DNA of 64,000 nucleotides. Origin: a virus. The position numbers and the translations under genes are program-made. Each line of letters begins with the position of its first letter. Within the stretch, counting starts at the first letter, position 1. Positions 1 to 16,611 of this stretch are shown here, in pieces. Under the pieces are notes generated by a model. It did no database searches, had not been told where the DNA came from, and worked only from the letters and a program-made list of their open reading frames with translations. Location of the stretch: positions 1-64,000 of the IMG/VR virus record IMGVR_UViG_3300030329_006605. One strand, written 5' to 3'.

Positions 1-3000
1 ATCTTTAACATCAAATCCTTCATCGCCAGCAGTTGCAATCATTTTTGATCTAAGCTCTCCAACTTCTAAAAATGCGCCCTTGATGTCGCCCACCTCTCCG
101 GCAATTCGATTGATATTGTGCACGTGTGCTTGAAATTGTTTTATAGCCTGCTGTTGGTTTTCTAGACTAAAGCTTCTAGCTTTGTCGAATTGCCCCTGCG
201 CTATCCCGCGCATTGGTTCATATTGGTTCCCCACAATCTTCTTTATAGCATCCAAAATCCCAACCATCTGTCTTGTATTACCGGCAGTTTCCTCAAGGGG
301 TGTGTCTCTCATTATCTGCTTCATTGCCGCTTCGTAAACCTTTGGATCATCTGCCGCTCTTTCCATTTCTTCTGCTGCAGCAATCATTTGAGACCTCTTG
401 GCTGGGTCCATCTCTGAGGTAGCACGGCTTCTCATTGTGTCTGCTGCGTTTAAAGTGTGTTGTTTGAGTAGGCCCGCGTATTCTCCAATCGCCATATCAC
501 GCATAGCCTCCGCGGCTCCACCACCGTCAGGAGATTGACCGGTAATTTTTTCCCAAGATTTTAAAAGCATCAGAGCTCCTCTGCCTTGTTCTGCGCCGGT
601 CGGTCCTGTGGTAAATTTATCAAGGCCTAATGTAAATTTTTCTATGAGTGGGTCCATGGACTTTGGATCCAAGAAAGCGTTTATTCCGCCCATTCTATCT
701 AATTCTCTTTTATCTTGACGAACTAATTGGGCGTGTAATTTTTGTTGTATTAATTCTCTAAGCTGATGAACGTTATCCATATGCAGAGTACTCAATATTT
801 CTGTAATTTTATCTGTTTGCTCGTCGATACCAGATTTAAGAGTTTCGGTCTTCATGAAGGTCTCTTTATTTGCGTCAACAATTTGTTTTAATTTATCAGC
901 CACGTCAGTTATGCTTCCGGCACCGCCCTCTTGCGCAGTCTTTTGTAGCATAGCTACTTCTTCACCTATTGCTAGCACCGCCTTCAATTTCTTTTCTGCT
1001 TGGAAGGTCGCCGCTTTATTTCTTTCAGACCCGCCCGCACTTCTTTTTTCTTCTGCGCCAGCTTTGATTCTGGATATTTGATCAAACACTTTATCAAACA
1101 TTCCTGATTGAGCTTTTCTCATTTCGTCTCCGAGTTTAACACCCGAGTCTTCCATTATTTGGCTAAGTTTAACATCATATTCTAATTGCGCTGTTGTTTC
1201 TTCGCCCATGAATGGTGCCATTCTTTTTATTTCTAACTCCATTCTGGATCGTTCTAAATTTCTACCCATTCTGGAATCTAATCCAAGTCCCGTTCCATCT
1301 TTGCCCATTCTATCGTCGATCTGTTTTTTGAACTCAGCCCTACGCCCCATAGCCTTTAAGAATTGGAAATAAGCTTCCTTCGCGTCATTTAATACATCAA
1401 TGGAGTCTTTATGAGCTTTTGTTAATTGTTCTGCTTTTATTCTTTCTTGATCGCGGACCTCCCTTAAAGCTTCTAGTGTATTTTTAGAGTTTTGCATTTG
1501 AGCGGATATTTCTACAATGGCATCAAAATATGTCTGCAAGCCTGTTGCGTCTACGTCACCTTGTTCAACGCCCCTGCGCTGTCCCTCAATTATTAACTTC
1601 ATTTGGTCCGTTTGGTTTGGTATAGATTCCAAAGCGGACACAATATCACTTGCCGACGCGCCTTGTAGCTCCGGTGCACGGTCAGCCATAAACTGTAATT
1701 GTTCTGAGTCAAGAGATTTTGAAAAAGCCTTTGCGTCACTACGCGCATCCATTCTTCCCTTGATTGTCTCTGTATTGTAGACTTTATCGTTCATTCCCAA
1801 GATGCCTTCCGTAAAGAAGTCATGCCAGTCGTCAACCGCGTCAACAGCTTCAGCTAATGATGCAGCAAGAGATATCTGTTGTAATTTTTGACCTTCTTCG
1901 TAAAGGGCTTTTGCGATGAGTTCTTGCTGCTTGGTGGTGTCGTTAACGGCCATTAATTGCGCTCGGTATTGATCCGGAACATCTGCAAGAGTTTCAGCCA
2001 TTTCCCTTTCCAACCTTACGATTGTTTCTGCGTGAGAATTTACATCTGCATATGCCGCCGCTAATTTTTGTGAAACTTGAGTAAACTTTTGTGTGCTATC
2101 GGAAAGTTTGGTAAATTTCTCTTTCGTTTTTTCCATTTCTTCTTTGAGCGCTGGACCGGCATCATTTAAAGAATTATATAGGGATCCCACCACGCCCGTT
2201 ATTCCAACGAAGGCGCCCGCAGCCACTCCTATCGGACCCGGAATCATCATCATTGCTGTTCCAGCCATAGAAGCGGCTTCCGACATACCGCTTAAAGCGG
2301 TTTTTGTTTTTTTCATTTCTTCCGGAAGCATGCCGCCCGCTATATTCATAGCCATGCCTCCACCCATACCAGCAACCATGCCTTTTTTCTTAATGTTGTC
2401 GGTTCTTTCTGCGCGAGCTCTCGCGGCGGCTTCTTTATCAGAGGTGTCCCTTAACTCACTTTCCCACGCTGACCTCGATTTTGTCTCCCCCTCTATTGTT
2501 ATTTGTTGTTCGGGGGCAATAACTTTCCCACTATCATCCATAGAATACCCCTCGGCTTCGAATCTAGCAACCTCGCTTGTGAATTCGTTTTTTAGCTCCT
2601 CCTTGGCTATTTTGCTTGCGGCGGCTTTGCCCTCCCTCGTGGTTCGTTCTCCACGCATAAAATGATCCTTACCTTTATCATCTGTTATTGTCCTTCCGCT
2701 AGCGATAATTTCATCTGTTTTTGCTTTAAGGATATCACCCTTAGGCTGATATCTTGAAGGGTCTTTGCCTACTTCCATTTTTAAAGCTTTATATTTTTGT
2801 TCTGCTCCCGCCGCTGATTGACCGGCCCCCTCAAGCTCTCTCTGCAAAAGACCTAATCTGCCTCCTAGCCTTTCTATCTCTTTTAAAACTGGATTAATAA
2901 CTGGTTCTATCTCGCCCATCTGACCGGAATAAGCTAGCATTCCCAATCCCATCGGCCCCATTAAATCACCTAAACCAAATCCTTCTTCCGCAAAATTAGG

Positions 3001-6000
3001 AACAAATCCACTTGCAGCATACCTTTCTTTGCCAGAGCCGGTTTTACCTAGATTAACCCGGTCTGCTTTTTGCCCTCGATCTATGTGATCTTTCTTGATG
3101 ATTTTATCAGCGCTATAGCCATGTTCACGAGCTTGACTTCTATTAACTACCACCTCTTGTCCTAGTCTATTAGATGTCAAAGCTATCGCGCTACCAGCCA
3201 AAGCTTTTTCTCGCTGCATTGATTCAATCATCGGGTTAAAGTTCGGAACAAAACCGCCATACTTTTGCCGTTTTATTGCGTGACGCCTCATGTCTGGGCG
3301 CACTTCTTCAACCTGAGATAAAAATTCGTCTTGATCAGTTGGGAGTTGTAAAGATCCGACAACAGAACCCCAACTTCTAGTAAATAAATCAGAAGGAGTA
3401 TCAAGCCTACCAATTCTTTGTTTCATAATTTGCTCAGGGCCACCCTCCGCCTCTAACGCTATAAGTCTGTTTGATTTTTCGACCGTTTGTTTAGTAAGTT
3501 CGTTATTTAAATTGTCAGAAGCTTGAACAACTACAATTTTATCAGAATCAATAATGTCCTGCTCAGATTGAATAGGAGTACCCTTACCACCTTCTTTTAT
3601 TCCAGCAAAAGTTGATTTACCTACGCCCGAAGGCCCCATTACCGTCGTTATAGGCTTACCAGAATTTAGGGCAAATCTAACTAACTCATCATAGGCCAGT
3701 CTTGACCCCTTGCCCTTTTGTTTAAAAGTGTCCCAATCAAGAACTCCTCTAGCGGCAAAGTTCGGAACAAAACCGGAAGCGTAATCTCCAGCTTGCGAAT
3801 ATTTTGCTATTTTTTGACCCCTCCGTAAGTCTGCGTCAGTCTCTGCTCCACCCAGAGGGATTTCTGTGTCCAAATCTTCAGAAACTCCAAGCACCTGAAG
3901 GCCCAGATTTATGCTATCTTTAAAATTTGCATCGCCCTCTTTAAATTGTGAATCCGCATTGGCCACACTTCTAGCAAGAATGTCTCTAGAATGTTTTCCT
4001 ATGGTTGCTTTAAACCATTCGTCTATAGAATTTACTCCCCCCACTTCCTTTGAAACCATTTCTTTATTTTTAGCTTCACCAGATGTTACCAATTCTTCAG
4101 GGTTGAGCCCAGAAGATTGACCAAGAGCAGCGCTCCTTGTATGACCTTCAGGATAAACAATATCAGCAGAATAACTATCGCTCGTTAAACCACTCTTAGC
4201 CGTTGCTTGTCCTTTTAAAGTTGTTCTTCTCGCAGCTTTATCAACGCCTTCTATCAGGTGCTTGTTTTCGTCAAGCGTATCCATTATGTATTCATCTGCA
4301 CCAGTTCTAAAACCCCCAGTCTCTTCGGCCATTATATCTTCTAAAATATCAGCTTTTGCTTTTAATCCAGCAGCCTTTTGGGCGTCAACTATTTTTCTTG
4401 CTTTGTTAAACTCTTCTTCGAATTGCTTAGCTCTTAAGTGGGGTGCAACATATCCTTTATCTCCTTCGGGTTTGAATGCATCCGGATGAATAGTGTCTAA
4501 ATACGCTTGGGCGGCTTCTTCCGTGGTGTATTTCTCTTTACCTTCTCCTAGAACCGGGTCAGCAATTCTCTGCCAAGAAGCTCCACCCCTGCTGCCCACG
4601 ATTTTTTCCTCCCCCATTTTTTCGTTAACACCACCAAAAGCTTTAATAAGTGTTTCACTTTGAATTTGATCGTCAGATTCGATAGGTCCGGCGCCAAATG
4701 GCCATTCTCTTCCCGCACTCTTTGGGCCTAATTGAGATATACCAATAACTTTATCCATTTTTATCTGACCAGCGGCGTAAGCTTTTTGATCTGGCGTATT
4801 GATAATACTTGGATTTAATCCCGCAAGCCTAGCCTGAATACCCATTGGTCTCATATTGTTTAAATAAAAACCGACCTCTTTTGGAGAAGGAACAGGTAAT
4901 CCAGCACGCTTGTATCTTTCTGTTCGGGTTGCTCTCTCTAATCTGTCTTTAGATTGACCTCCTCCCCCCGGGGTCAAAGCAGAACTTAAAATTTCATTAT
5001 TTGTATTTGTTAGAATCTTCTCCAAATCAGAAGCTGACCCACTTTTGGTTGCGTGTAGGGCTACTAAATCAGATACAGAAGAACTAAAGCTATAACGATA
5101 CCCGCTGTCGGGATCGCCACCAAGAAAATCGTACTCCAAGAAGTTGGGAACATGACCGACTGCTCCATGTATACCCCCTATTCTTTTTACTTCTTGTTCG
5201 GTTCTTGGAGAATGATGCTGCCATCCTCCTGCTGCAAGTTTTGGGAGCTCTTGGTCGGGACCAAGCCAATTTTGCGCATCAAAATAGATTGCTTTTTCCA
5301 TTGCAAGATCTATAAGTCTGGTAACTGCCTCTTGCCCCCCTCTGCCCGCGGCAGCCTGCATAGCAAACCACCTCCGAGTCTTTTCTTGATTCATTAGGCG
5401 TTTCGTGCCGTGTTTGGTTTCTCTTAAACCGCTCGACGCCTCACTTCTACGAGTAAGTTCCCCTGCTGTACCGGGGCTACCGTCTGCGGATCCAATCTCT
5501 GGAGCGGAACCAACCTCTTCATCACCGGGTGTTAATTCTAACATGGCTCCGCGATGCTCTGCCCATCTTTGCGCAATTTCCTCGCTTCTACTTAGCGAAG
5601 CAACTCCAGCGGGAGATACCGATTTGGAGCTTTGCTCAGCTAGCCACGCTTCAAAAGATCTCAGTGATTCTTCAGTAGTATTCCCTTGGCCGGCCTGTTT
5701 TTCTTTACCCGTGACAGGACCATAAGACATGTCTGGCCTGCCCGCTTTACCGTATTGATATTCTCCTTCACTATAACCCCTAAAGAGATCTAAGAAATTC
5801 GGAACATAACCCGTGCTTTTTTTGCCACCAAAAAGTGAAGAAATTTTTCCTTCCGCCCATTCTCCCCAAGTTTGCCCCGCGTCAGATGGAGGAGTTGATG
5901 GGTCGTCTTGTGTTGGTGAAGATAATTTTTCCTTGACCCATTGCTTGGCCGCTTTTACTCCAAAGAAATCTTGCTCTTCTGCATCGCGTTGGTCGTGCTG

Positions 6001-9000
6001 TAACTGAAAGATTTCGGATTCATTTTTTGTCCCTTTGTGCGGTGCGGTGGGGTCAACTAGGGTGTCTTCAGCTATTAATCTGTCAATTTCCTTCTTGCGA
6101 GTATTTTGGAAGAAATCGGTGCTCTCTATTATAGTTTCTAATATACCGTGGTTGTAATCCTGACCCGGGAACTTTCGCCCGGCGAATGGTGGCTCGCTTT
6201 TTGTTTGCCCGAAAGGTACGTCGGGGTCGTACATCATTCCTTTTATAATTGTGTATGGTACTCCAACGAACTGCGCTGCTTTTTGAAGCTTTTCAAGCCA
6301 TGGGCTTGGTGTCCCTGCTTGAGAATGAAACGGAATTTGTTGAGGAACCAAATCAAGTAAGGTCTGTTGGGTTTGAGGATCGAGGAGAGGATCGAGAAAA
6401 AAGTTTGGAATATAACCCATGCTTTTCATTTGGGCTAAGTTTTCTGGTTTAGCTAAATTTAAAATTCTTTCTATATCATCTACGGTTTCAATATTGTCGA
6501 AGCCTTCATCTAAAGTGGGAGCTTCAAATCGATTATACATTCCCTCAATAGCCGCTTCTGGAATAGTTTTACTTCCCCCTTTTTCTTTTATTATTTCCGC
6601 TCTTCTTGCGGTTATAGCTTTTATAGCAGACTTGACATCCTCTTGTTTTCTGGGGTCAAGATTAGATATATCCCCAAATACTACCGCTTCTTTTTCGTAG
6701 TCTTTAATTGTATCTTGATCGAACATTTCTAAGGACATTTTTCTTTCCCTAGCGCTCATGTTAGTCATATCAACCGAAATGTCTTTTCCAGATTTACTCG
6801 CTTCAGAAACTCTTGCGTCAAATCTTTTTTGAATTTCTCCCCGAGCCTCTAAAACATTACTCCAAACTAATTCCGGTATCCAAGGTTGATCTTCAGCGAG
6901 CTTTGGATCAAAATCAGGATTTACCATAGCTGTTCCTAATTTCGGATGAATCGCCCCAACCTTAACTTCTTCTCCGGGTATTTCGAATGTATCGTCATAA
7001 CTCATACCCATATCCGCGACAACTTCATTTACTACATCATCTCTACTTATAATAAAATCATCTGGGGCATTTTTCTGCAACCAAGTTGATTTGCCTACGC
7101 CCGGCGCACCCACGAGTGTTCTTAATTTTTTTGCAAAATTCGGCACATAACCAGAAGCCTTCGAGTCGCGTCCAAACATTTTTCTAGCTTTGTCTGGGAT
7201 ACTTCCTAAATCGTCAAGATCGGTGGAGAGAATGTCTCCCGCTCCTTCAGCCAATCTTTCTAACCATTTGGGGTCTTTAACTTTATCATCAATACTGAGG
7301 GGGTCGAAACCATCCTCACTAAACATAGAACGTAACCCCGCGTATCCCGCTGAGGCTGCCATTGCGCCCGTGGTCACAAGCTGCCCTGCTTCAGCCAATA
7401 TAGCGGGGTCAATGAAATTCGGCACGTGACCAGCAAACCTTTTTGAGCCGCCGGGATTTGCTCCTCTATTTGCGTGCTTACTTTCAAAAGATTGAACTCC
7501 GGTAATTTCTGGTATACCAAGTTTATTTATTTCTTCAATATTTTCTGCAGCATCGTCCCCGAGATTGAAGCGCGGGGTTACCCCGCCTTTATCTTGAGCT
7601 TTTCTGTGCATTCTTGCTAGAACTAAAGCTTTCTTTTGCGCCGAATTTAAATGTTTCCATCTTCTACTACCCTTACCTTTTGGCCATCCTTTCTCATCTA
7701 AACTTTCGTATTGATCATCAAGCCTACCACCCGGCGCAAAATCACTAGGTCTAACTACGCCCACTTCGAGACCCGTGCTGGGATCGATCTGGGCAAAATC
7801 ATATCCTTGTTCTATTTTTATGTCATTGAACAAATCTCCAGTAGTTATTACGCCTTTGAGGTTTACGTTTTTATTTAATAGATTTTCTTCAATTGTCGGC
7901 TTTGACTTTCTACCTCTCGCTGTAAGAATTTCTACCCTACGTTGCGAATCTACCATCTCTTGCCCAACACCCACTTGTGTTGTTGGAGCATCAGTGTCTT
8001 CGGGTGAGCCAGTTAAAATACCCTGCTTGGCAGACCAAGCTTGAGCAAGCTGAAAACCCTTTACATTCGCTGGGTAAGTTACTGTATGCTCGTCATAATC
8101 ATCAAATTGAACCAACTCGTCATCTGATAGTTCGCTAGGTCTTATAAAATTGGGAACATACCCCGTTGCATAGTGTGGTTTCGTACCGAACCCAAAAGTT
8201 CCAGCTTCATCCAAAGCTCCTCTTTGTTGTTCCAATCTATCCCACTCAGGCTGAGGAGGCCCGTCTGGATAAACTGCATTAACCATGCCCGCCGCAATCC
8301 CCCGAAGTATTTCTCCGTTTTGATCTGGATCTTCTTCAAACCAACCGTACAAGGATTTAGCCATAGCATCGCCGCTAGCACCCCCGCCCTTCATAATTTT
8401 CTCCACTTCAGGAGGTAAAACATCTGCGGCTGCGGGTGAGTTCGATAACCTTTGAATTAAGTGTATTGATTTTTTAACATCTCCTTCATTAGATGCGGGC
8501 AACAAGCCTTCAAAATCTCCAGCCGGATCAGATTTAGCATGACTAAGTCTATCTTCTCCGCTTCCCGCCCCCCAGATAGCATCTGTTCCAAAAATCTTTT
8601 CGGCGGCCTTAAGTCTGTTCGCTTCTATAGTCTCAGCAATAACTCTCTCTTCATCTCCACGCTCTTTATCTACGCCTTTTATAGCTCCAGCTAGTTCATG
8701 TCCAAGCGCAACGCCAGCATGTGCGCCTTTTACTCCAGTAAAAGATAATGTTTCCGCTTCGCCTTTTACTTTATTACCCTTTTCGTTGAAAGCCCTTGGG
8801 TTTGCGAATTCGATTTGTAAATTATTTATTGCATCTTCGTAATTATTAAAAGCTTGACCTTCGTAAGTAAAATTTGTTGCCGCTTTAAATCTTTCTAGTT
8901 CTATAAGATGTTTGCTTTGTTCTTGTAATACTAATAATTTTTTATGTGCTTGTGGGTCTGTGATAGCTGGAGCTTTTATTTCTATTCCTGAGTCTGGTAG

Positions 9001-11559
9001 ATCTTCTGGAAAAAGAGCTTTGAATTCTGGCTTAATACCCTGTCCCATTATATCTACTCCCTCTGCACCCTTTTGCCCCCTTGTCTGTGGGTAAGTCATA
9101 GCCTGCAAGAAACCTTCCCAAGCATGACCCCTTACTTGTCCATGAGCATTTTCGGGCAAAGATTGAGGATCATAAGAATCCCTCATTGTTTCCCAATCCG
9201 GATGTTTTCCAAGGGCGTCTCCCGCGACATTATGCAGTAGGCCTCTCCAATTATTATCTAAAGAATGATCAAATCTTTTTCTAAAGCTGTCTGGCATTCC
9301 TCTGTTTTCGTCCCCAGAACTACCGATTGGTCCACCTTCTTCGGGTGTGATTCTTTCTTTAAGGTCTCTATTAAAAGTACCCGGCTCAACACCCGCACCC
9401 TTTTCCATTTCGCTTTGAATCAATCCGAAGCGAGCCGCATGAGGTCTATCAAGTAAAGCCCCGCCCACTCTTTCTTTTTGTGTTCCCAACTCCATTACAG
9501 GTAGCCGTGCTTTCCCAAGCCCCATATTAGCGCCGGGAATCTCATCGTCCAATAGCCTTTGAGGCCCGCTTATACTGGCGAAGTTAGGAACAAAGCCGTC
9601 GCTTTTTTTGAATTCTCTTTGTCTGGCTTCTGTAATTTTGTCTGCCAACTCATCCCTTTTTTGTCTTCCCACTGCGCCGTACCTAGGAATGACAGTCCAC
9701 TCCCCACCCTTGGGCGTCACGCCAAATTTTTTCTGCATTTGTTGTGGGCTATAAACATCTTCAGCATCATTAGCTAGAATGCCTGTATGCCCTTCTATTT
9801 TCGCTTGAGGATGCCATTGAGACTGAACGCTTTTTGGTGCGCCTAAAGCTTTAGCCATGGTTTCTTCTGAATTGCCAGCAGAGAAATTAGGAACATAGCC
9901 AGTTGCCGCGGTTTTTCCTGCGGGCATCATCTGCCCCTCAAAAACTTTCCCTGCTGCTGTATCACCTTTACCTACGGTGACCCCGGAAGCCGCAAGATTC
10001 TTTGCGATCGTCTCAGAGGTTTTTGCCATTCTAATCATGTGGTCAGATTCTTTTTGAATCATACCTAAAATTTTTGCATGCAGATCTTTCTCAGTAATTA
10101 AACCTTGGTTTAGTTTATTCAATTCTTCTGGGTTCTTCTGCAGGTAATTAAAAATCTGCCCTTGAATGTTGGCAGCTTCTCTAGAGCCTTGATTGAACCC
10201 TGTGATTCCTCCTAGAGCGTCCGCACTAAATCTAGTAAGTTTGTCGAACAGCTTCATTATACCCAACGTCAAAACCGCAATACCGGGCCCCTTGAGAAGA
10301 TTACCTATACCCTCTAACACTCCCGTAGCTAGCTTTTGACCGATCCCTTTGCCATCCATATCATCGCCGACGCCTTCAAGAGCTTCGTTTAAACCTCCCA
10401 AAGTTCTCTTTAGTGCTGGCCCCAAAGTTAAATTGCCAACAGCCGAACCAGCTTTCACAAGATTATTGAGCGTTTGAATCAATTGCGCGCTGATTGTTTT
10501 GTTTAATTGTTGATTTCTTTTCTCTGCTTCGTCCGTGGCTGAAGAAGCGATATTTAATGCGTTCGCATATAAGCTATGCTCTTTACTTAAATCTCCCAAG
10601 GCGGCTTTCAAAACGTTAACTTGGAAAACGCCACCAACCATCTCAGCGACCATGGCTCTTTGTCTTTTTTCTAAACCGTCATACTCCTTAGCTAGATTTC
10701 CTAATACCCCCATCAAGCTAAGGCTTGCTCCATTCGCGTCTTCCGTCGTAACACCTATAGCTTCTAAGGCGTCAATAACCCTAGGTCTTTGCATTCTTGT
10801 AAAGATAGTTTTGAATGCGTTACCAATAACCGCACCACCTCTAGCGGTTGTTTGTTGTGTTGCAGCGACAATACTTAACAACTCGTTCAAAGATACTCCT
10901 GCGTCAGAAGCAGAACTACCTACACGCTTTATGGCTTCAGCTAGGTCGGCAGAACTAACAGCAAAAGCCGCATCAACCGCGGCCATCTTATTTACGATTT
11001 CATTAGACTTTAAAGCTTCTTTCGTGAAGCCGTTCATCGCAGCAGTTAATGCCATTACAGAAGATGCTGCGTCTAGTCCAGATATACGTGTTAAAATTAA
11101 AGCGTCATTTGTTCTCTTTAAAGTTTCTTCTATCCCCAAGCCTTGTCTTGCTAATTCGTTTGCAGCTTCAGCTACAACAGAAAAAGCTTGACCAGTTCTA
11201 TTCGCTATTTCGAATAATTGATTTCCGAATCTTTCTAAAGAAGCACCACTTACCCCCAAGATTGTATTAATTTCCGTAAGAGATTTTTCAACGTCATGCG
11301 CTGCTTGAACCATTCCCCGAAGAGCCATTGAAACTGCGCCGATTGCTGCAACCGATGCACCGAACGCAATAACACGAGCATTAGAAGCTTCTAGGGATTT
11401 TTCGAATTCACCGAGTTGACCTTTAATTCTGCCGAGGGGTTGAGAGAACCGTTTGGCATCCAGAGGACCGAGATTATATCTAGCGTTTAACGCTTTTTTA
11501 ATCTCTCTGCTTAAGAGCGTGGTATCGCCCGATACGGTTAATCTAATATCAGATGGCAT
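1..11559 (-). CDS. Giant tail tape measure protein (>=3853 aa, 3' end outside window) with an internal array of enzymatic cargo modules
   Basis: ATG at 11559, with an in-frame stop upstream at 11590-11592. No stop in the ~7 kb translated by hand, and the ORF is absent from the track as expected if it stays open to base 1. N-terminus (MPSDIRLTVSGD...EKSLTEINTILG...LARQGLGIEETLKRTNDALILTR...AAVDAAFAVSSADLAEAIKRVG...TTARGGAVIGNAFKTIFTR) is a TP901-type TMP core. Gly/Ala/Met-rich hydrophobic segment at ~2180-2400. Lies downstream of the tail tube and chaperone-position genes. Confidence 0.93.
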   Translation of the reverse strand, partial: MPSDIRLTVSGDTTLLSREIKKALNARYNLGPLDAKRFSQPLGRIKGQLGEFEKSLEASNARVIAFGASVAAIGAVSMALRGMVQAAHDVEKSLTEINTILGVSGASLERFGNQLFEIANRTGQAFSVVAEAANELARQGLGIEETLKRTNDALILTRISGLDAASSVMALTAAMNGFTKEALKSNEIVNKMAAVDAAFAVSSADLAEAIKRVGSSASDAGVSLNELLSIVAATQQTTARGGAVIGNAFKTIFTRMQRPRVIDALEAIGVTTEDANGASLSLMGVLGNLAKEYDGLEKRQRAMVAEMVGGVFQVNVLKAALGDLSKEHSLYANALNIASSATDEAEKRNQQLNKTISAQLIQTLNNLVKAGSAVGNLTLGPALKRTLGGLNEALEGVGDDMDGKGIGQKLATGVLEGIGNLLKGPGIAVLTLGIMKLFDKLTRFSADALGGITGFNQGSREAANIQGQIFNYLQKNPEELNKLNQGLITEKDLHAKILGMIQKESDHMIRMAKTSETIAKNLAASGVTVGKGDTAAGKVFEGQMMPAGKTAATGYVPNFSAGNSEETMAKALGAPKSVQSQWHPQAKIEGHTGILANDAEDVYSPQQMQKKFGVTPKGGEWTVIPRYGAVGRQKRDELADKITEARQREFKKSDGFVPNFASISGPQRLLDDEIPGANMGLGKARLPVMELGTQKERVGGALLDRPHAARFGLIQSEMEKGAGVEPGTFNRDLKERITPEEGGPIGSSGDENRGMPDSFRKRFDHSLDNNWRGLLHNVAGDALGKHPDWETMRDSYDPQSLPENAHGQVRGHAWEGFLQAMTYPQTRGQKGAEGVDIMGQGIKPEFKALFPEDLPDSGIEIKAPAITDPQAHKKLLVLQEQSKHLIELERFKAATNFTYEGQAFNNYEDAINNLQIEFANPRAFNEKGNKVKGEAETLSFTGVKGAHAGVALGHELAGAIKGVDKERGDEERVIAETIEANRLKAAEKIFGTDAIWGAGSGEDRLSHAKSDPAGDFEGLLPASNEGDVKKSIHLIQRLSNSPAAADVLPPEVEKIMKGGGASGDAMAKSLYGWFEEDPDQNGEILRGIAAGMVNAVYPDGPPQPEWDRLEQQRGALDEAGTFGFGTKPHYATGYVPNFIRPSELSDDELVQFDDYDEHTVTYPANVKGFQLAQAWSAKQGILTGSPEDTDAPTTQVGVGQEMVDSQRRVEILTARGRKSKPTIEENLLNKNVNLKGVITTGDLFNDIKIEQGYDFAQIDPSTGLEVGVVRPSDFAPGGRLDDQYESLDEKGWPKGKGSRRWKHLNSAQKKALVLARMHRKAQDKGGVTPRFNLGDDAAENIEEINKLGIPEITGVQSFESKHANRGANPGGSKRFAGHVPNFIDPAILAEAGQLVTTGAMAASAGYAGLRSMFSEDGFDPLSIDDKVKDPKWLERLAEGAGDILSTDLDDLGSIPDKARKMFGRDSKASGYVPNFAKKLRTLVGAPGVGKSTWLQKNAPDDFIISRDDVVNEVVADMGMSYDDTFEIPGEEVKVGAIHPKLGTAMVNPDFDPKLAEDQPWIPELVWSNVLEARGEIQKRFDARVSEASKSGKDISVDMTNMSARERKMSLEMFDQDTIKDYEKEAVVFGDISNLDPRKQEDVKSAIKAITARRAEIIKEKGGSKTIPEAAIEGMYNRFEAPTLDEGFDNIETVDDIERILNLAKPENLAQMKSMGYIPNFFLDPLLDPQTQQTLLDLVPQQIPFHSQAGTPSPWLEKLQKAAQFVGVPYTIIKGMMYDPDVPFGQTKSEPPFAGRKFPGQDYNHGILETIIESTDFFQNTRKKEIDRLIAEDTLVDPTAPHKGTKNESEIFQLQHDQRDAEEQDFFGVKAAKQWVKEKLSSPTQDDPSTPPSDAGQTWGEWAEGKISSLFGGKKSTGYVPNFLDLFRGYSEGEYQYGKAGRPDMSYGPVTGKEKQAGQGNTTEESLRSFEAWLAEQSSKSVSPAGVASLSRSEEIAQRWAEHRGAMLELTPGDEEVGSAPEIGSADGSPGTAGELTRRSEASSGLRETKHGTKRLMNQEKTRRWFAMQAAAGRGGQEAVTRLIDLAMEKAIYFDAQNWLGPDQELPKLAAGGWQHHSPRTEQEVKRIGGIHGAVGHVPNFLEYDFLGGDPDSGYRYSFSSSVSDLVALHATKSGSASDLEKILTNTNNEILSSALTPGGGGQSKDRLERATRTERYKRAGLPVPSPKEVGFYLNNMRPMGIQARLAGLNPSIINTPDQKAYAAGQIKMDKVIGISQLGPKSAGREWPFGAGPIESDDQIQSETLIKAFGGVNEKMGEEKIVGSRGGASWQRIADPVLGEGKEKYTTEEAAQAYLDTIHPDAFKPEGDKGYVAPHLRAKQFEEEFNKARKIVDAQKAAGLKAKADILEDIMAEETGGFRTGADEYIMDTLDENKHLIEGVDKAARRTTLKGQATAKSGLTSDSYSADIVYPEGHTRSAALGQSSGLNPEELVTSGEAKNKEMVSKEVGGVNSIDEWFKATIGKHSRDILARSVANADSQFKEGDANFKDSINLGLQVLGVSEDLDTEIPLGGAETDADLRRGQKIAKYSQAGDYASGFVPNFAARGVLDWDTFKQKGKGSRLAYDELVRFALNSGKPITTVMGPSGVGKSTFAGIKEGGKGTPIQSEQDIIDSDKIVVVQASDNLNNELTKQTVEKSNRLIALEAEGGPEQIMKQRIGRLDTPSDLFTRSWGSVVGSLQLPTDQDEFLSQVEEVRPDMRRHAIKRQKYGGFVPNFNPMIESMQREKALAGSAIALTSNRLGQEVVVNRSQAREHGYSADKIIKKDHIDRGQKADRVNLGKTGSGKERYAASGFVPNFAEEGFGLGDLMGPMGLGMLAYSGQMGEIEPVINPVLKEIERLGGRLGLLQRELEGAGQSAAGAEQKYKALKMEVGKDPSRYQPKGDILKAKTDEIIASGRTITDDKGKDHFMRGERTTREGKAAASKIAKEELKNEFTSEVARFEAEGYSMDDSGKVIAPEQQITIEGETKSRSAWESELRDTSDKEAAARARAERTDNIKKKGMVAGMGGGMAMNIAGGMLPEEMKKTKTALSGMSEAASMAGTAMMMIPGPIGVAAGAFVGITGVVGSLYNSLNDAGPALKEEMEKTKEKFTKLSDSTQKFTQVSQKLAAAYADVNSHAETIVRLEREMAETLADVPDQYRAQLMAVNDTTKQQELIAKALYEEGQKLQQISLAASLAEAVDAVDDWHDFFTEGILGMNDKVYNTETIKGRMDARSDAKAFSKSLDSEQLQFMADRAPELQGASASDIVSALESIPNQTDQMKLIIEGQRRGVEQGDVDATGLQTYFDAIVEISAQMQNSKNTLEALREVRDQERIKAEQLTKAHKDSIDVLNDAKEAYFQFLKAMGRRAEFKKQIDDRMGKDGTGLGLDSRMGRNLERSRMELEIKRMAPFMGEETTAQLEYDVKLSQIMEDSGVKLGDEMRKAQSGMFDKVFDQISRIKAGAEEKRSAGGSERNKAATFQAEKKLKAVLAIGEEVAMLQKTAQEGGAGSITDVADKLKQIVDANKETFMKTETLKSGIDEQTDKITEILSTLHMDNVHQLRELIQQKLHAQLVRQDKRELDRMGGINAFLDPKSMDPLIEKFTLGLDKFTTGPTGAEQGRGALMLLKSWEKITGQSPDGGGAAEAMRDMAIGEYAGLLKQHTLNAADTMRSRATSEMDPAKRSQMIAAAEEMERAADDPKVYEAAMKQIMRDTPLEETAGNTRQMVGILDAIKKIVGNQYEPMRGIAQGQFDKARSFSLENQQQAIKQFQAHVHNINRIAGEVGDIKGAFLEVGELRSKMIATAGDEGFDVKD
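3256..3756 (-). other. TMP module 9: small P-loop kinase
   Basis: VMGPSGVGKSTF Walker A, followed later by a lid-like QIMKQRIGR. Confidence 0.75.
5158..5793 (-). other. TMP module 7: putative R-S-E ADP-ribosyltransferase
   Basis: LFRG (R), ASLSRSEEIAQRWA (SxS plus helix) and TEQEV (ExE), in canonical order. Confidence 0.7.
6418..7134 (-). other. TMP module 5: polynucleotide kinase-like (AAA_33) P-loop kinase
   Basis: LVGAPGVGKSTW, IISRDD, ISVDMTN...R and IPEAAIEGMYNRFEAPTLDEGF match the T4 PNK kinase/AAA_33 signatures. Confidence 0.88.
7432..8145 (-). other. TMP module 3: HAD-family phosphatase (PNK 3'-phosphatase-like)
   Basis: Motif I FDDYDEHT, motif II VEILTARG, motif III SAQKKALV, motif IV NLGDDAAENI, in the expected order. 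Confidence 0.75.
8164..9579 (-). other. TMP module 2: putative PD-(D/E)xK nuclease domain
   Basis: RGHAWEGFLQA...GVDIM...GIEIKA gives the E...D...ExK pattern of the restriction-endonuclease fold. Confidence 0.6.
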
Positions 11560-11654: not shown

Positions 11655-12572
11655 TTATCTTCTTCTTCTGGCGGGTTTGGATCTCTTTATAGAGCTCTGT
11701 TGTTTTGACTGCATTCTTTGTTGTTCTCTCCTTGAATTTATTAAATTAAATTCATTATCAAACCAATTCATTATCTTCTCTAGTCCCCCTTGTTCATCTT
11801 GGTAATAATGCTCAGGAACCCCGTTTTCACTTTCTTGCAATACAGATTTACAAAATTTACCCCTAGTATATAAATTCATTTGATATACAGTCATTTCTAA
11901 CACGGGCTTTCCGAAGAACTTTACGGGGTCATTATCAGACATCATAAAAGCATTAAGAAAAAATGTATTAACTGCTATTCTTTTTATATTTTTCTCCGAA
12001 TAAGATGATATTGCTTGATTATATTCTTTAACAATTCCCCCAATATCTCTGTAACTTAATTCAGAATATTCTTCTTTCGTATAGTAGGGTTCGGTGAGTT
12101 CTTCGTTCTTGTAAAAAGCCCTATAAACATAGTCTTCATTTATTTTTTTACTACAGAAGCTTTCTAGGGTTGGATTTACTATTTCATCTCTTTTTTTTGA
12201 AATATCTCTTAAAGCTTTTTCTTCTTTATCAACTTCTTCTTGAAATTTTTCCCTTTGTTCTGGGATGACTATTTTAGCCATGTGATCGATTGTGTCAGAT
12301 AGGTTTTGTTTTGCCTGAAGATATTCTGTTTCTTCTTCTTCGGTCCAGAAATCTTCTTCTTTAAGAAATTTAATTTTTTCCAATTCTGACATTAAGCCCA
12401 TTTCTTGAGCTTCTATTTTATAGGAATTATATATACTTTCTAATAGCCCCAAATCAGCTTCAGCAAAATGTTTTATGTATTTATTCCCATTAGGAACATG
12501 GGTGTATCCCTGCAGTATATCTCTATAAGCATTACGGCATTCTTTTGAATTTGTTAATATTATACTTGACAC
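11655..12572 (-). CDS. Hypothetical protein, possible tail assembly chaperone
   Basis: 305 aa, helical/charged, immediately upstream of the TMP. Confidence 0.45.
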   Translation of the reverse strand: MSSIILTNSKECRNAYRDILQGYTHVPNGNKYIKHFAEADLGLLESIYNSYKIEAQEMGLMSELEKIKFLKEEDFWTEEEETEYLQAKQNLSDTIDHMAKIVIPEQREKFQEEVDKEEKALRDISKKRDEIVNPTLESFCSKKINEDYVYRAFYKNEELTEPYYTKEEYSELSYRDIGGIVKEYNQAISSYSEKNIKRIAVNTFFLNAFMMSDNDPVKFFGKPVLEMTVYQMNLYTRGKFCKSVLQESENGVPEHYYQDEQGGLEKIMNWFDNEFNLINSRREQQRMQSKQQSSIKRSKPARRRR

Positions 12573-12581
12573 TTAACATAC

Positions 12582-13595
12582 TCATTCTTCGGCTTCGTTA
12601 CTTAGGTTAACCTCTTTTTCAGACTTTACAGAAGCCTCTTCCTCCGCGACAGCCTCTTCTTTATCTGTTTTTTCTACCGCTTTTTCTTCTGTTTTCTTGG
12701 TTACCTTAGGTTTTCTGCCTCTTTTCTTTTTTGCCGCTGTCTTTTTCTTGGGCTCTTCTTTCTTTTTCTCTTCCGCCTTTGCTGCAGCTTCTTCTTCAGC
12801 TTTCTTAGACTCAATGATCGTGTCTATTTCGTATTCATTATTAGATTTATAGATCTCCTGAATAGATTCAAAATCTTCTTGATTTGCTGCTCTGCCCATG
12901 TACCAGAAACTAACATAATAAGCTAATCTCTTAATGGCTTCGTTTCCAAATACATCGTCTGAATCTTCAATCTGGTCATAAGAATCAAGCCTCGCTTCAA
13001 AACTTGTTCCATTAAAAAACGGCGCGAAATCATTATGATCATGCTCTTTCCAATGGGATAAATTTAAAACCCACCACATAATGACTTGATTCTTCGCTCT
13101 ATTTTCGGCGGTTTGATCAAAAATGTTAGATTGACTGTTCTCAATATCTTGCAATTCCCTCCTCATTCCCGCGATTTCTGTTAAAAGACTTTGGGAAAGT
13201 TGTGTTTTTAGGTCGGAATCTTTTTCGTCAAGATTTAACTGGAGTCTTTGGTATTCGTTTTCCTTGTTATAAATGGCTAAATACAATTCAGAATACCGCT
13301 TTTTCTCTGATTCGCTGAATGCCCCGCCGTCGTCTTCGTAACGCTTTGCAAGCAAATTCCTTGTCAATAAACCAGCCTTAATGCCTTCTGACATTTTTAC
13401 CCCATAAAATAGCTCTGCTTGGTCATAGAGCTTTCTGTTGGGGCGCTTCAGTGCAAAAGCAATTTCTCGAGGTTTTTGAACCTTTTTAATGGTTTTAATG
13501 TCCTCGCCGTTTTCGTCTTTGGATTCAATTGTTTCTTCGACCTCATCGAAGTTATTAATTGAAAATTCAAATAGCCATTTATTTCTCTTCTTCAT
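12582..13595 (-). CDS. Hypothetical protein, possible tail assembly chaperone, with E/K-rich C-terminal tail
   Basis: 337 aa, between the tail tube and TMP genes. Confidence 0.45.
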   Translation of the reverse strand: MKKRNKWLFEFSINNFDEVEETIESKDENGEDIKTIKKVQKPREIAFALKRPNRKLYDQAELFYGVKMSEGIKAGLLTRNLLAKRYEDDGGAFSESEKKRYSELYLAIYNKENEYQRLQLNLDEKDSDLKTQLSQSLLTEIAGMRRELQDIENSQSNIFDQTAENRAKNQVIMWWVLNLSHWKEHDHNDFAPFFNGTSFEARLDSYDQIEDSDDVFGNEAIKRLAYYVSFWYMGRAANQEDFESIQEIYKSNNEYEIDTIIESKKAEEEAAAKAEEKKKEEPKKKTAAKKKRGRKPKVTKKTEEKAVEKTDKEEAVAEEEASVKSEKEVNLSNEAEE

Positions 13596-13956
13596 AAATA
13601 TTATTCCTTGTTTTACTGTGTATAATTAGATTTTTATCCGGGTTGCCGAAATCAATATCATTATTATCATTTAATGAAATATTAAAATTTTCCAACAAAT
13701 CTGAAAGATCTCTCATAGCCTCGTTACCCGAATCAAGAACTCGCTTACGAACAAGGGAATAATGATCATTATTTAGATAATTTAATATAGCTAAGTCTTC
13801 TGGAGATAATTTGTCTCTTAGCTTCTCTACGGCAATTGTATGTGTATATTGAATATCTTCTAACGCTCCCAGATAATTTTTAAAAAGTCTGGTGATTGAT
13901 TTTCTGATTTCTGAATTCAGAAGTTTGTGATGTTTTTGACCATTTTCCTTGTCCAT
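13579..13956 (-). CDS. Hypothetical protein
   Basis: 125-aa ORF in the tail operon, preceded by a late-promoter-like motif. Confidence 0.6.
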   Translation of the reverse strand: MDKENGQKHHKLLNSEIRKSITRLFKNYLGALEDIQYTHTIAVEKLRDKLSPEDLAILNYLNNDHYSLVRKRVLDSGNEAMRDLSDLLENFNISLNDNNDIDFGNPDKNLIIHSKTRNNIYEEEK

Positions 13957-14004
13957 AAGCCTTTTTCCTTAAATATAAATACACATTTTTAAATAATAAA
14001 TCAC

Positions 14005-14033
14005 AAAAAACCCCGCGCCGGAACGCGGGGTTT
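14005..14033 (-). terminator. Rho-independent terminator after the tail tube gene
   Basis: CCCCGCG/CGCGGGG stem followed by T6 on the minus strand. Confidence 0.85.
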
Positions 14034-14078
14034 ATGTTTACTTTAGTTAAATAAATAACTAAAAGCTTTGTGACCCGA

Positions 14079-15014: not shown

Positions 15015-15136
15015 AAGATATATCTCCTATATTTAGACTAAACATAGACAAGCAATCAAAAAATGGTTTTGAACTCGCATATCTTTGTATATCTACGTGG
15101 TATTACAGCCAGTTTCGGTGAATGTGAAATAGATAT

Positions 15137-16027: not shown

Positions 16028-16611
16028 CCTCTCATTAACTCCTTTCGAAATTTGCTTAAAAGCTCAGACATATATGGTGTTGGGGTTGATGAAGACATTC
16101 TTATTTTGCCCTTAATTTGTATGCCCGAACCAGACCTAGAAGCTCTAGATTTTTTCTCCATATAAGAACTAAAATTACTTATTCCTCTTTCTATCATTTC
16201 TATCCAGCTATTTCCACCCTCATACGGCATTTTGCCTACCGCAGAAAAATCTTTAACATTTGGAACTCTTACTGAAAATCTTTGAGATATTCCTTTGGGG
16301 GAGACTTGGGCTTTACCCGCATTAACTCTTATTGAAGCGTTTAACAAATTTCTAACTTCTGAAATAGGGTCAGACCCTTGGGGGAAACCAATAAAAGAAA
16401 ATAAATTTCCATATCCTCCAAGAGAACCGCTAAGATTTTTAGAGCTTGGACCACTATTTATTTCTTGCGTAACTGCATGGTTTTCGAAATCTTGCATTAA
16501 TTTTCTTTTTGCTATTTCAACTCTTTTTCTTCCTGCAGCCTCAAGAGATTGATTTAGTTTTCTCGACCTAGAAACTTTTTGTTGTATTTGCTTCCAATTA
16601 ATTTTAGCCAT
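16024..16611 (-). CDS. Putative neck/tail completion protein
   Basis: Basic 195-aa protein in neck-gene position. Confidence 0.45.
   Translation of the reverse strand: MAKINWKQIQQKVSRSRKLNQSLEAAGRKRVEIAKRKLMQDFENHAVTQEINSGPSSKNLSGSLGGYGNLFSFIGFPQGSDPISEVRNLLNASIRVNAGKAQVSPKGISQRFSVRVPNVKDFSAVGKMPYEGGNSWIEMIERGISNFSSYMEKKSRASRSGSGIQIKGKIRMSSSTPTPYMSELLSKFRKELMRG

What the first reader, a model, noticed from the sequence alone, without database searches (positions are those of the whole stretch)
6418..8145. Split RNA end-healing kit (HAD phosphatase plus polynucleotide kinase) inside the TMP
Seen: module 3 has four HAD-like motifs, and module 5 has PNK kinase motifs (GxxGxGKST, RDD, DxTN, EGF). 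They are separated by an 87-aa module and lie in the reverse order to T4 Pnkp. Known: T4 Pnkp heals tRNA broken by the anticodon nuclease PrrC. Inference: virion-delivered end-healing enzymes that counter ribotoxin or DNA-break defences from the first moment of infection. No ligase was recognised in the array, so sealing would have to come from elsewhere.
Basis: partly seen in the sequence, partly recalled or inferred. Interest (0 to 1): 0.8.

Follow-up and report, generated by a model that had tools for sequence, protein, structure and literature searches.

The report
Pnkp-like kinase and phosphatase inside a tape measure
A giant phage tail tape-measure protein carries, as two separate embedded modules, relatives of the kinase and phosphatase halves of the T4 nucleic-acid end-repair enzyme Pnkp, suggesting that some phages bring ready-made repair enzymes into the cell inside the virion.

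Summary
A minus-strand ORF of at least 3853 aa (window 1-11559, cut by the contig end) is a tape measure protein (TMP). Eleven G[YFH][VI]PNF motifs divide it into modules.

Module 5 (6418-7134) is a polynucleotide 5'-kinase by every test. It passes Pfam AAA_33. Its family profile matches T4 Pnkp (hhalign 97.6%, E 3.6e-12). The 12 best PDB sequences are all polynucleotide kinases.

The "kit" reading is only partly supported. The HAD module occurs in about 22 giant TMPs. The kinase occurs in just two: this one and a relative with an 8088-aa frame, where the two modules lie about 900 residues apart. No RNA ligase was found in the 94-kb record. An ATP-dependent DNA ligase sits beside a free-standing AAA_33 kinase at 72-74 kb.

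Virion delivery and the substrate (RNA or DNA) are inferred, not shown. I found no description of this architecture in the literature searched. It is a new variant of known kinds (Pnkp end-healing, injected polyvalent proteins).

The parts
1..11559 (-). Giant tape measure protein ORF, at least 3853 aa, 3' end cut by the contig end
   Evidence: Open frame. The window is the first 64 kb of a 94,012-bp virus record. N-terminal PhageMin_Tail 1.9e-31 and TMP PHROGs to 1e-48; the C-terminal 997 aa match phrog_1272 TMP at 3e-13. It lies at the end of the terminase-portal-tail fibre late operon.
9901..11559 (-). TMP N-terminal domain (aa 1-553)
   Evidence: Pfam PF10145 at 110 bits, cut-off 33.2. 53% identical to the G001 TMP N-domain. 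25-27% identical to Bacillus siphophage TMPs.
8146..8163 (-). Delimiter motif GYVPNF (aa 1133-1138) before module 3
   Evidence: The motif is exclusive to the TMP.
7432..8145 (-). Module 3: HAD-superfamily phosphatase with a T4-Pnkp-type predicted fold (aa 1139-1376). Catalytic codons: D16 8098-8100, D18 8092-8094, T75 7921-7923, R77 7915-7917, K171-K172 7630-7635, D197-D198 7552-7557
7414..7431 (-). Delimiter motif GHVPNF (aa 1377-1382)
7153..7413 (-). Module 4: 87-aa acidic spacer module of unknown function with a Gly/Ala-rich hydrophobic start
   Evidence: No family hit. pI 4.4. No relatives apart from one spurious repeat-protein hit.
7135..7152 (-). Delimiter motif GYVPNF (aa 1470-1475)
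6418..7134 (-). Module 5: polynucleotide 5'-kinase of the Pnk clade (aa 1476-1714). K15 codon 7090-7092, D32 7039-7041, D122 6769-6771, R177 6604-6606
   Evidence: Pfam AAA_33 at 36.4 bits, cut-off 27. hhalign to T4 Pnkp 97.6%, E 3.6e-12. The profile against PDB puts polynucleotide kinases in the top 12. AF2 pLDDT 89.7. Foldseek and VIA top hits are PNKP, CthPnk, Pnkp1 and T4 Pnk. 69% identical to the G001 copy.
6400..6417 (-). Delimiter motif GYIPNF (aa 1715-1720) after module 5
3256..3756 (-). Module 9: second small P-loop module (GPSGVGKST), a possible second kinase; in G001 it directly precedes the HAD module
   Evidence: Only weak P-loop hits. Atlas leads to AAA_33/zeta/KTI12 clusters score below 0.9. 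Position in G001. This is a lead only.

Best explanation
Two passenger modules of a giant tape measure protein are diverged counterparts of the two halves of a bifunctional polynucleotide kinase-phosphatase.

Module 5 is an ATP-dependent 5'-OH polynucleotide kinase. Its P-loop K15/S16 binds ATP. D32 acts as the general base on the 5'-OH. D122 and the lid Arg R177/R178 complete the site. Module 3 is a Mg-dependent HAD phosphatase. D16 is the nucleophile, D18 the acid/base, and T75, R77, K171/K172 and D197/D198 complete the site. Its fold is of the T4 Pnkp 3'-phosphatase type.

Because they are part of the TMP, they are made late and built into the virion. They leave the tail ahead of the DNA, so they are present in the next host before any phage gene is expressed. 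A kinase needs ATP, so at least that module must reach the cytoplasm. There the pair would convert 5'-OH and 3'-phosphate (or 2',3'-cyclic phosphate) ends into ligatable 5'-P and 3'-OH ends. Sealing is left to a ligase from elsewhere: a host enzyme, or the phage's own ATP-dependent ligase once it is expressed.

I judge broken RNA (tRNA cut by defence ribonucleases) somewhat more likely than DNA as the substrate.

Shown: homology, conserved catalytic residues, and the TMP context. Inferred: activity, substrate, co-operation of the two modules, incorporation into the virion, and delivery.
For: Kinase:
- Pfam AAA_33 over its cut-off.
- The family profile against T4 Pnkp gives 97.6%, E 3.6e-12 over T4 residues 2-144. 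K15, S16, D35, D85 and R126 all have equivalents.
- The profile against all PDB sequences puts CthPnk, Pnkp1, T4 Pnk and mammalian PNKP in the top 12 (1.7e-10 to 1.9e-8), and no zeta-type kinase in the top 60.

Phosphatase:
- Four HAD motifs are invariant over 10 sequences.
- The same chains, 1ltq_A and 4xrp_A, are hit by module 5 on their kinase half and by module 3 on their phosphatase half.

Context:
- Relatives of the kinase are coupled to T4 Rnl1-type RNA ligase (RpAliso, G040, G042). They are fused to a CCA-adding-type nucleotidyltransferase (L028) and to HD phosphohydrolases in the order phosphoesterase-kinase (L054, L057, L059).
- RpAliso has a naturally split Pnkp: a separate AAA_33 kinase and HAD_PNKP phosphatase, plus Rnl1.
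- Both modules are kept in an independent relative, at 46% and 69% identity, with catalytic residues intact.
- TMP identity and late-operon position.
Against: - Module 3 has no significant sequence link to any Pnkp phosphatase or any Pfam HAD family. Its assignment depends on a model built from 5 sequences (mean pLDDT 67.6).
- The HAD module is found in about 22 giant TMPs, but the kinase in only 2. In G001 the two are about 900 residues apart, with other modules between. The HAD clearly works without this kinase in most phages.
- No RNA ligase (PF09414, PF09511, RtcB) is present in the held 94 kb (about 60% complete). The only ligase is an ATP-dependent DNA ligase, next to a free-standing AAA_33 and near an endoV-like glycosylase.
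- T4 R38 has no equivalent (V35).
- It is unexplained how ten or more globular modules fit in or travel through a tail tube.
- There is no experimental evidence for virion incorporation.
Confidence: 0.5

Rival explanations
1. The two modules are functionally independent passengers. The HAD module is the ancestral, core cargo of this TMP family. It acts on a substrate that is not a polynucleotide end, for example (deoxy)nucleotides like phage T5 dNMPase, nucleotide-derived immune signals, or a phosphorylated envelope component. The Pnk-type kinase is a later, separate acquisition in one lineage.
For: - HAD alone in about 20 TMPs, and kinase in only 2.
- Module order is shuffled between the window and G001.
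- No sequence-level link to HAD_PNKP.
- Atlas leads include T5 5'-deoxynucleotidase and DUF2608 clusters as well as an RNA-repair HAD.
- Most HAD enzymes act on small molecules (general knowledge).
Against: - The predicted fold ranks the two Pnkp-type 3'-phosphatases 2.4-3.2 Z units above every other HAD, including the deoxyribonucleotidase-like 3bwv at 7.1.
- R77, aligned by motif with the essential T4 R213, is invariant.
- Both TMPs that have the kinase also have the HAD.
Confidence: 0.25
2. The pair heals DNA ends, not RNA ends. It processes the ends or nicks of the incoming phage genome, or breaks made by host nucleases, so that a DNA ligase can seal or circularise it at once. This would protect it from exonucleases.
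For: - The phage encodes an ATP-dependent DNA ligase directly beside a second, free-standing AAA_33 kinase, and near a pyrimidine-dimer glycosylase.
- No RNA ligase was found.
- The best Foldseek hits of the kinase are the mammalian DNA-repair PNKP.
- T4 Pnkp acts on DNA as well as RNA (general knowledge).
Against: - The nearest cultured and metagenomic relatives of the kinase are wired to RNA-specific partners: Rnl1, a CCA-adding-type enzyme and HD-Pnk-like fusions.
- The record is only about 60% complete, so an RNA ligase may lie outside it.
- The best fold matches of module 3 are RNA-repair enzymes.
Confidence: 0.2
3. Module 5 is an injected small-molecule kinase toxin of the zeta/PezT/AvrRxo1 kind (UDP-GlcNAc or NAD kinase) that poisons host metabolism, and is not a nucleic-acid enzyme.
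For: - Small-molecule kinases interleave in the Foldseek list from E 5e-4.
Against: - The family profile against the PDB gives polynucleotide kinases in the top 12 and no zeta-type chain in the top 60.
- No Pfam Zeta_toxin hit at E up to 1.
- hhalign to T4 Pnk is 97.6%.
- Identity to PNKs is 21-25%, against 12-15% to zeta-type chains.
Confidence: 0.05
4. The modules are catalytically irrelevant. They would be degenerate spacer domains that only add length or bulk to the tape measure, or the frame is an assembly artefact.
For: There is no direct evidence of activity. Ten globular domains are hard to reconcile with a tail lumen.
Against: - All catalytic residues of both modules are invariant across relatives at 33-69% identity.
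- The kinase is one of the two best conserved parts of the TMP between the window and G001, at 69% against 53% for the TMP domain itself.
- The same architecture occurs on independent contigs from other samples.
Confidence: 0.05

Closest known systems
Phage T4 Pnkp (PseT), bifunctional 5'-kinase / 3'-phosphatase
   Same: - The kinase module is homologous over the whole T4 kinase domain (hhalign 97.6%), with equivalents of K15, S16, D35, D85 and R126.
   Different: - The two activities are separate modules in reverse order, split by an 87-aa module and by G[YFH][VI]PNF motifs, and embedded in a virion tape measure protein rather than an early cytoplasmic enzyme.
- There is no significant sequence similarity for the phosphatase.
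- T4 R38 is not conserved.
- There is no Rnl1/Rnl2 partner in the held genome.
Pnkp1 of the bacterial Pnkp1/Rnl/Hen1 RNA-repair complex (PDB 4xrp)
   Different: Pnkp1 is a cellular, fused kinase-phosphatase that works in a complex with an RNA ligase and the Hen1 methyltransferase. No such partners were found here.
Split Pnkp plus Rnl1 of Ruegeria phage RpAliso
   Same: - Natural precedent for separate kinase (AAA_33, 163 aa; 28.6% identical to module 5, the nearest cultured-phage relative) and phosphatase (HAD_PNKP, 208 aa) polypeptides in one phage.
   Different: - They are ordinary free-standing genes. The kinase is translationally coupled to an Rnl1-type RNA ligase, and they are not part of a structural protein.
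- Its phosphatase matches Pfam HAD_PNKP at 1.7e-29, whereas module 3 does not match at all.
HD-Pnk type end-healing enzymes (N-terminal phosphoesterase, C-terminal Pnk kinase; known from Runella slithyformis, from my own knowledge)
   Same: The order is phosphoesterase before kinase, as in the window. HD-plus-AAA_33 fusions are found among distant relatives of module 5, one directly followed by Rnl1.
   Different: The phosphoesterase there is an HD domain, not a HAD domain. These are free cytoplasmic proteins.
Polyvalent proteins of phages and conjugative elements (Iyer et al. 2017, PMC5512222)
   Same: One very large polypeptide carries several unrelated enzymatic domains and is proposed to enter the host with the DNA and act before gene expression.
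   Different: - That paper does not mention tape measure proteins, polynucleotide kinases or HAD phosphatases (0 occurrences).
- Its hallmark processing peptidase (MPTase) was not found in the visible TMP, which has no HExxH.
- The modules here are bounded by a conserved hexapeptide instead.
Tape measure proteins with embedded enzymatic motifs (for example peptidoglycan hydrolase motifs in mycobacteriophage TMPs; from my own knowledge)
   Same: A TMP used as a vehicle for a catalytic passenger domain that acts at infection.
   Different: Known passengers act on the cell wall outside the cytoplasm, and number one or two. Here the passengers are ATP-dependent nucleic-acid enzymes among ten or more modules.

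Membership tests
Polynucleotide 5'-kinase clade (T4 Pnk / CthPnk / PNKP; Pfam AAA_33) | P-loop GxxGxGK[ST] binding ATP (T4 K15, S16) | tested here: met
   GAPGVGKST. G9, G14 and K15 are invariant and S16 nearly invariant. Aligned to T4 K15/S16.
Polynucleotide 5'-kinase clade (T4 Pnk / CthPnk / PNKP; Pfam AAA_33) | Catalytic Asp after strand 2 that activates the 5'-OH (T4 D35) | tested here: met
   D32 in SRDD is invariant in 10 sequences and aligned to T4 D35.
Polynucleotide 5'-kinase clade (T4 Pnk / CthPnk / PNKP; Pfam AAA_33) | Walker-B-like Asp in D-x-T-N (T4 D85) | tested here: met
   VDMTN. D122 is nearly invariant and T124 invariant, aligned to T4 SDTN.
Polynucleotide 5'-kinase clade (T4 Pnk / CthPnk / PNKP; Pfam AAA_33) | Lid arginine contacting ATP phosphates (T4 R126) | tested here: met
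   hhalign puts R177 opposite T4 R126, followed by a 9-residue insertion. R178 is the better conserved of the pair, so the register may be off by one.
Polynucleotide 5'-kinase clade (T4 Pnk / CthPnk / PNKP; Pfam AAA_33) | Arg contacting the phosphate 3' of the terminal nucleoside (T4 R38) | tested here: not met
   V35 aligns with T4 R38. From my own knowledge, this residue is not conserved in mammalian PNKP either, so I do not treat it as clade-defining.
Polynucleotide 5'-kinase clade (T4 Pnk / CthPnk / PNKP; Pfam AAA_33) | Significant sequence and fold similarity to characterised members | tested here: met
Polynucleotide 5'-kinase clade (T4 Pnk / CthPnk / PNKP; Pfam AAA_33) | 5'-OH kinase activity on RNA or DNA | not testable with these tools
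   Needs expression and an oligonucleotide kinase assay.
HAD superfamily phosphatase | Motif I DxDx(T/V): nucleophile and acid/base Asp | tested here: met
   D16 and D18 are invariant. The +4 position is His in the window, Asn in G001 and P0003, and Thr in the others.
HAD superfamily phosphatase | Motif II Thr/Ser, motif III Lys, motif IV DD | tested here: met
   T75, K171/K172 and D197/D198 are invariant in 10 sequences. The Lys-to-DD spacing in relatives is about 20 residues, against 19 in T4.
HAD superfamily phosphatase | Rossmannoid HAD fold | tested here: met
   Predicted only. The AF2 core has pLDDT 80-95. Nearly all of the 50 best structural matches are HAD members. Foldseek's top hits are also HADs, but not significant.
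HAD superfamily phosphatase | Match to a curated HAD sequence family | tested here: not met
   No Pfam family for any of 10 members at useful E-values (DUF2608 at 0.11 at best). No PDB sequence hit with the profile.
T4-Pnkp-type polynucleotide 3'-phosphatase (Pfam PF25109 HAD_PNKP) | Match to the PF25109 model | tested here: not met
   No hit on module 3 at E up to 10. RpAliso gp115 scores 1.7e-29 in the same library.
T4-Pnkp-type polynucleotide 3'-phosphatase (Pfam PF25109 HAD_PNKP) | Profile similarity to T4 Pnkp or RpAliso phosphatase | tested here: inconclusive
   hhalign E 0.12-0.67, although the motifs align co-linearly.
T4-Pnkp-type polynucleotide 3'-phosphatase (Pfam PF25109 HAD_PNKP) | Fold closest to Pnkp-type phosphatase domains rather than other HADs | tested here: met
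T4-Pnkp-type polynucleotide 3'-phosphatase (Pfam PF25109 HAD_PNKP) | Essential Arg residues of T4 (R176, R213) | tested here: inconclusive
   R77 in TAR matches T4 R213 in SGR by motif register and is invariant. No clear equivalent of R176 was found.
T4-Pnkp-type polynucleotide 3'-phosphatase (Pfam PF25109 HAD_PNKP) | 3'-phosphatase or 2',3'-cyclic phosphodiesterase activity on polynucleotides | not testable with these tools
   Needs a biochemical assay.
Tail tape measure protein | TMP domain and position in the late structural operon | tested here: met
   PhageMin_Tail 1.9e-31 and TMP PHROGs. Terminase, portal and tail fibre lie upstream on the same strand. Hydrophobic Gly-rich segment at aa 3100-3128.
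Polyvalent proteins (Iyer et al. 2017) | Several unrelated enzymatic domains in one polypeptide of a mobile element | tested here: met
   At least a Pnk kinase and a HAD phosphatase, plus a second P-loop module, in one ORF.
Polyvalent proteins (Iyer et al. 2017) | Embedded zincin-like processing peptidase (MPTase) | tested here: inconclusive
   No HExxH in the visible 3853 aa. G001 has HEMTH at aa 4947 but no Pfam match there. The window's ORF is truncated.

The most novel reading that the evidence does not exclude
This TMP family is a previously undescribed effector-delivery vehicle. The tape measure doubles as an injected polyprotein whose modules are bounded by a conserved G[YF][VI]PNF processing or docking motif. 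In this lineage it carries a complete pre-made nucleic-acid end-healing pair (Pnk kinase plus Pnkp-type 3'-phosphatase). That lets the phage undo tRNA or RNA cleavage by abortive-infection ribonucleases before any phage gene is expressed.
Probability: 0.3. Interest if true: 0.85.

Novelty: new variant of a known kind. Interest (0 to 1): 0.7.

Why it matters
Known phage answers to tRNA-cutting or DNA-nicking defences, such as T4 Pnkp plus Rnl1, are made after infection begins. A repair enzyme carried in the virion would act from the first moment. That would be a new tactic in the phage-host arms race.

It would also extend the list of TMP passenger domains from cell-wall hydrolases to ATP-dependent cytoplasmic enzymes. 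That implies large parts of a TMP reach the cytoplasm and refold there.

The HAD module defines a family that is invisible to Pfam. It is found only in giant TMPs (up to an 8088-aa frame) of uncultured, apparently marine phages. These proteins and their delimiter motif pose a concrete structural puzzle about how tails are measured and what they deliver.

Tried and rejected
- Single-protein locus searches for module 3, P0005 and module 5 found nothing. Only the alignment-based searches worked.
- Word-indexed searches found no relatives of module 3 and no giant relatives. The exhaustive HMMER search gave only 5 hits, one of them (P0006) a spurious repeat protein.
- Pfam, PHROG and PDB sequence searches of module 3, alone or as profiles A1 and A3, gave nothing usable.
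- hhalign of the HAD family against T4 Pnkp and RpAliso HAD_PNKP was never significant.
- PF10307 (HAD_SAK_1) does not match. PF26880 is not in the library.
- The zeta/PezT/AvrRxo1-type kinase reading was considered and rejected on sequence-profile grounds.
- RNA ligase families PF09414, PF09511 and RtcB were not found in the 94-kb record. PF09511 rang in no control genome, so that blank is weak.
- No ligase or peptidase domain was found in the rest of the G001 TMP. No PF01068 or PF09414 in G001, which is 64% complete.
- No relatives of the HAD module in 185,579 reference genomes, so the host remains unknown.
- No nucleotide-level relative among cultured phages.
- Literature searches for the delimiter motif, and for tape measure with polynucleotide kinase or RNA repair, found only coincidental co-mentions.
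- dN/dS between the window and G001 was not attempted, because synonymous sites would be saturated at 46-69% protein identity.
Full report
**What is there.**
The window is the first 64 kb of a 94,012-bp IMG/VR virus record, about 60% complete. On the minus strand, bases 1-11559 form one open frame of 3853 aa that runs off the contig end.

- Its first 553 aa are a bona fide tape measure domain: Pfam PhageMin_Tail 1.9e-31, and TMP PHROGs down to 1e-48.
- The last 997 aa also match a TMP PHROG.
- The gene ends a late operon that runs terminase large subunit (36784-38613), portal (34721-36739), collagen-like tail fibre (21788-26173), then TMP.
- Eleven copies of G[YFH][VI]PNF cut the protein into modules. 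The motif occurs nowhere else in six frames of the record, and shuffles of the protein give 0.0 copies.
- The finding's coordinates correspond exactly to modules 3, 4 and 5: aa 1139-1376, 1383-1469 and 1476-1714.

**Module 5 is a polynucleotide kinase.**

- It passes the Pfam AAA_33 threshold (36.4 bits, cut-off 27) and has PHROG hits to polynucleotide kinase.
- Free-standing relatives of 194-251 aa share 34-47% identity over more than 90% of its length.
- In their alignment, G9, G14, K15, D32 and T124 are invariant. S16, D122, N125 and R131 are nearly so.
- The family profile aligns with authentic T4 Pnkp (taken from NC_000866) over T4 residues 2-144, at 97.6% probability and E 3.6e-12. K15, S16, D35, D85 and R126 are matched by K15, S16, D32, D122 and R177. 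T4 R38 is not matched; V35 stands there.
- Against all PDB sequences, the 12 best distinct chains are all polynucleotide kinases: C. thermocellum Pnk 1.7e-10, Pnkp1 4.6e-10, T4 Pnk 3.4e-9, mammalian PNKP 3.9e-9. The tRNA-dependent kinase PSTK follows. No zeta-type toxin is in the top 60.
- The AF2 model is confident (pLDDT 89.7).

**Module 3 is a HAD phosphatase of Pnkp-like fold, but an orphan by sequence.**

- It has no Pfam, PHROG or PDB sequence match. It has no relatives in the word-indexed search.
- An exhaustive HMMER scan of 1.84 billion representatives gave five hits. Four are modules of other TMPs that share the same N-terminal domain and the same delimiter motif.
- Alignment-based searches then recovered 8 viral and 20 metagenomic loci, about 22 non-redundant.
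- In a clean 10-sequence alignment (33-50% identity), D16, D18, E19, T75, A76, R77, K171, K172, D197 and D198 are invariant. That is HAD motifs I to IV in the canonical order.
- The AF2 model has a confident core (pLDDT 80-95, pTM 0.65) and a disordered insert at residues 108-162.
- Foldseek found nothing significant.
- All other HADs scored 8.8 or less. That includes small capless ones (MDP-1 7.6, HisB-N 6.9) and mammalian PNKP phosphatase (6.8).
- The chains 1ltq_A and 4xrp_A are thus matched by module 5 on one half and by module 3 on the other.
- The caveat is real. Pfam's dedicated HAD_PNKP model does not detect module 3. hhalign to T4 or RpAliso phosphatases is not significant, at E 0.12-0.67. 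The model rests on five sequences.
- Language-model leads point to viral HAD clusters that include an RNA-repair HAD, T5 deoxynucleotidase and DUF2608. A nucleotidase reading therefore stays open.

**Do the two modules form a kit?**

Evidence for:
- Ruegeria phage RpAliso has a naturally split Pnkp. A stand-alone AAA_33 kinase, the nearest cultured relative of module 5, is coupled to an Rnl1-type RNA ligase. A separate HAD_PNKP phosphatase lies nearby.
- Other relatives of the kinase are fused to a CCA-adding-type nucleotidyltransferase (L028), or to an HD phosphohydrolase in the order phosphoesterase-kinase (L054, L057, L059).
- Rnl1 is adjacent to the kinase in two records.

Evidence against:
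- HMM searches show the kinase module in only two TMPs: the window's and G001's. G001 has an 8088-aa open frame, contig positions 69170-93433.
- The HAD module occurs in all of the roughly 22 related TMPs.
- Module order differs in G001. The second P-loop module 9 directly precedes the HAD, and the kinase lies about 900 residues later, next to module 7.
- The HAD is therefore core cargo that normally works without this kinase. The kinase is a lineage-specific addition.

**Sealing.**

- No ligase domain is recognisable in the window's modules or in the rest of the G001 TMP.
- No RNA ligase (PF09414, PF09511, RtcB) is present in the 94 kb.
- At 72589-73836 of the record there is an ATP-dependent DNA ligase. 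A second, free-standing AAA_33 kinase (72186-72611) sits directly beside it. A T4 endoV-like glycosylase lies near both.
- This makes DNA ends a credible alternative substrate.

**Mechanism proposed.**

As parts of a TMP, the modules would be built into the tail and expelled ahead of the DNA. A kinase needs ATP, so it can only act in the cytoplasm. There the pair would turn 5'-OH and 3'-P or 2',3'-cyclic-P ends into ligatable ends, before any phage gene is expressed.

Homology, conserved catalytic residues and the TMP context are shown. Activity, substrate, co-operation, virion incorporation and delivery are inferred. How ten or more globular modules are housed in a tail is unexplained. So is the role of the delimiter motif, which could be a cleavage site or a docking site. 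No zincin motif is present in the visible part.

**Novelty.**

The closest concepts are T4 Pnkp-type end healing and the injected polyvalent proteins of Iyer et al. (PMC5512222). That paper mentions no tape measure proteins, polynucleotide kinases or HAD phosphatases. Searches for the motif and for TMP-linked RNA repair found nothing relevant.

No cultured phage carries the HAD module, and no reference prokaryote genome does either. Several metagenomic relatives come from Tara Oceans assemblies.

I rate it a new variant of known kinds. The kinase assignment is about 85% secure. The Pnkp-type phosphatase assignment is about 50%. The full virion-delivered end-healing story is about 50% as the best single reading, with RNA favoured over DNA at roughly 60:40.

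Noticed in passing
window 2992-9900 (all eleven motif sites: 9883-9900, 9580-9597, 8146-8163, 7414-7431, 7135-7152, 6400-6417, 5794-5811, 5140-5157, 3757-3774, 3238-3255, 2992-3009): The hexapeptide G[YFH][VI]PNF, usually preceded by a small residue, bounds every module. It is exclusive to the TMP (0.0 expected by chance). It recurs as GF[VI]PN[FL] in all related TMPs, where it directly follows the HAD module. Whether it is a protease site, a docking strand or something else is unknown, and no paper mentions it.
   Followed up: partly
L014 plus L015 (G001 contig positions 69170-93433, minus strand): The closest relative's tape measure gene is a single open frame of 8088 aa, with a 4892-aa stretch free of delimiter motifs and without any Pfam match. 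It is far longer than any plausible tail ruler if fully helical. It has an HEMTH motif at aa 4947.
   Followed up: partly
window 3256-3756 (-): Module 9 is a second small P-loop module (GPSGVGKST). It shows lead-level similarity to AAA_33/zeta/KTI12-type kinases. In G001 it sits directly N-terminal to the HAD module, in the T4 Pnkp order (kinase then phosphatase). It could be the HAD's original kinase partner.
   Followed up: partly
same record, outside the window: 71140-73836 (L003 7140-9836): A conventional repair cluster on the minus strand: an ATP-dependent DNA ligase (415 aa), a free-standing 141-aa AAA_33 kinase overlapping its end, and a T4 endoV-like pyrimidine-dimer glycosylase nearby.
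   Followed up: partly
same record, outside the window: 92395-92775 (-): A 126-aa ORF gives a weak sub-threshold match to Pfam HAD_PNKP (E 8.8e-4, 15.6 bits). It lies between a trypsin-like peptidase and a UDP-glucose dehydrogenase. It may be just another small HAD.
   Followed up: no
same record, outside the window: 87528-92321: An arginyl-tRNA-protein transferase C-terminal domain (ATE_C, 8.8e-10), a ClpP protease (5.8e-26) and a trypsin-like peptidase (3.8e-10) lie close together. The peptidases are candidates for processing the TMP at its delimiter motifs.
   Followed up: no
window 11655-20776 (-): Ten consecutive genes between the tail fibre and the TMP, presumably tail tube, chaperones and related parts, have no PHROG match at all. 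This underlines how remote the phage is from cultured ones.
   Followed up: no
window 7153-7413 (-): The 87-aa module 4 between phosphatase and kinase is acidic (pI 4.4) and starts with a Gly/Ala-rich hydrophobic stretch. It has no relatives and no predicted function.
   Followed up: no
L028 4553-6433 (+): A close free-standing relative of the kinase module (38% identity) is fused to a PolyA_pol head domain and its RNA-binding domain (CCA-adding-enzyme type). This suggests a kinase plus tRNA 3'-end repair enzyme in an uncultured virus.
   Followed up: partly
window 38613-39551 (-): An ERCC4-type nuclease homologue (phrog_3490, 3e-14) is encoded immediately upstream of the terminase large subunit.
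   Followed up: no
same record, outside the window: 75261-75336 (+): A single tRNA-Gly(GCC) gene. There are no tRNA genes inside the window.
   Followed up: no
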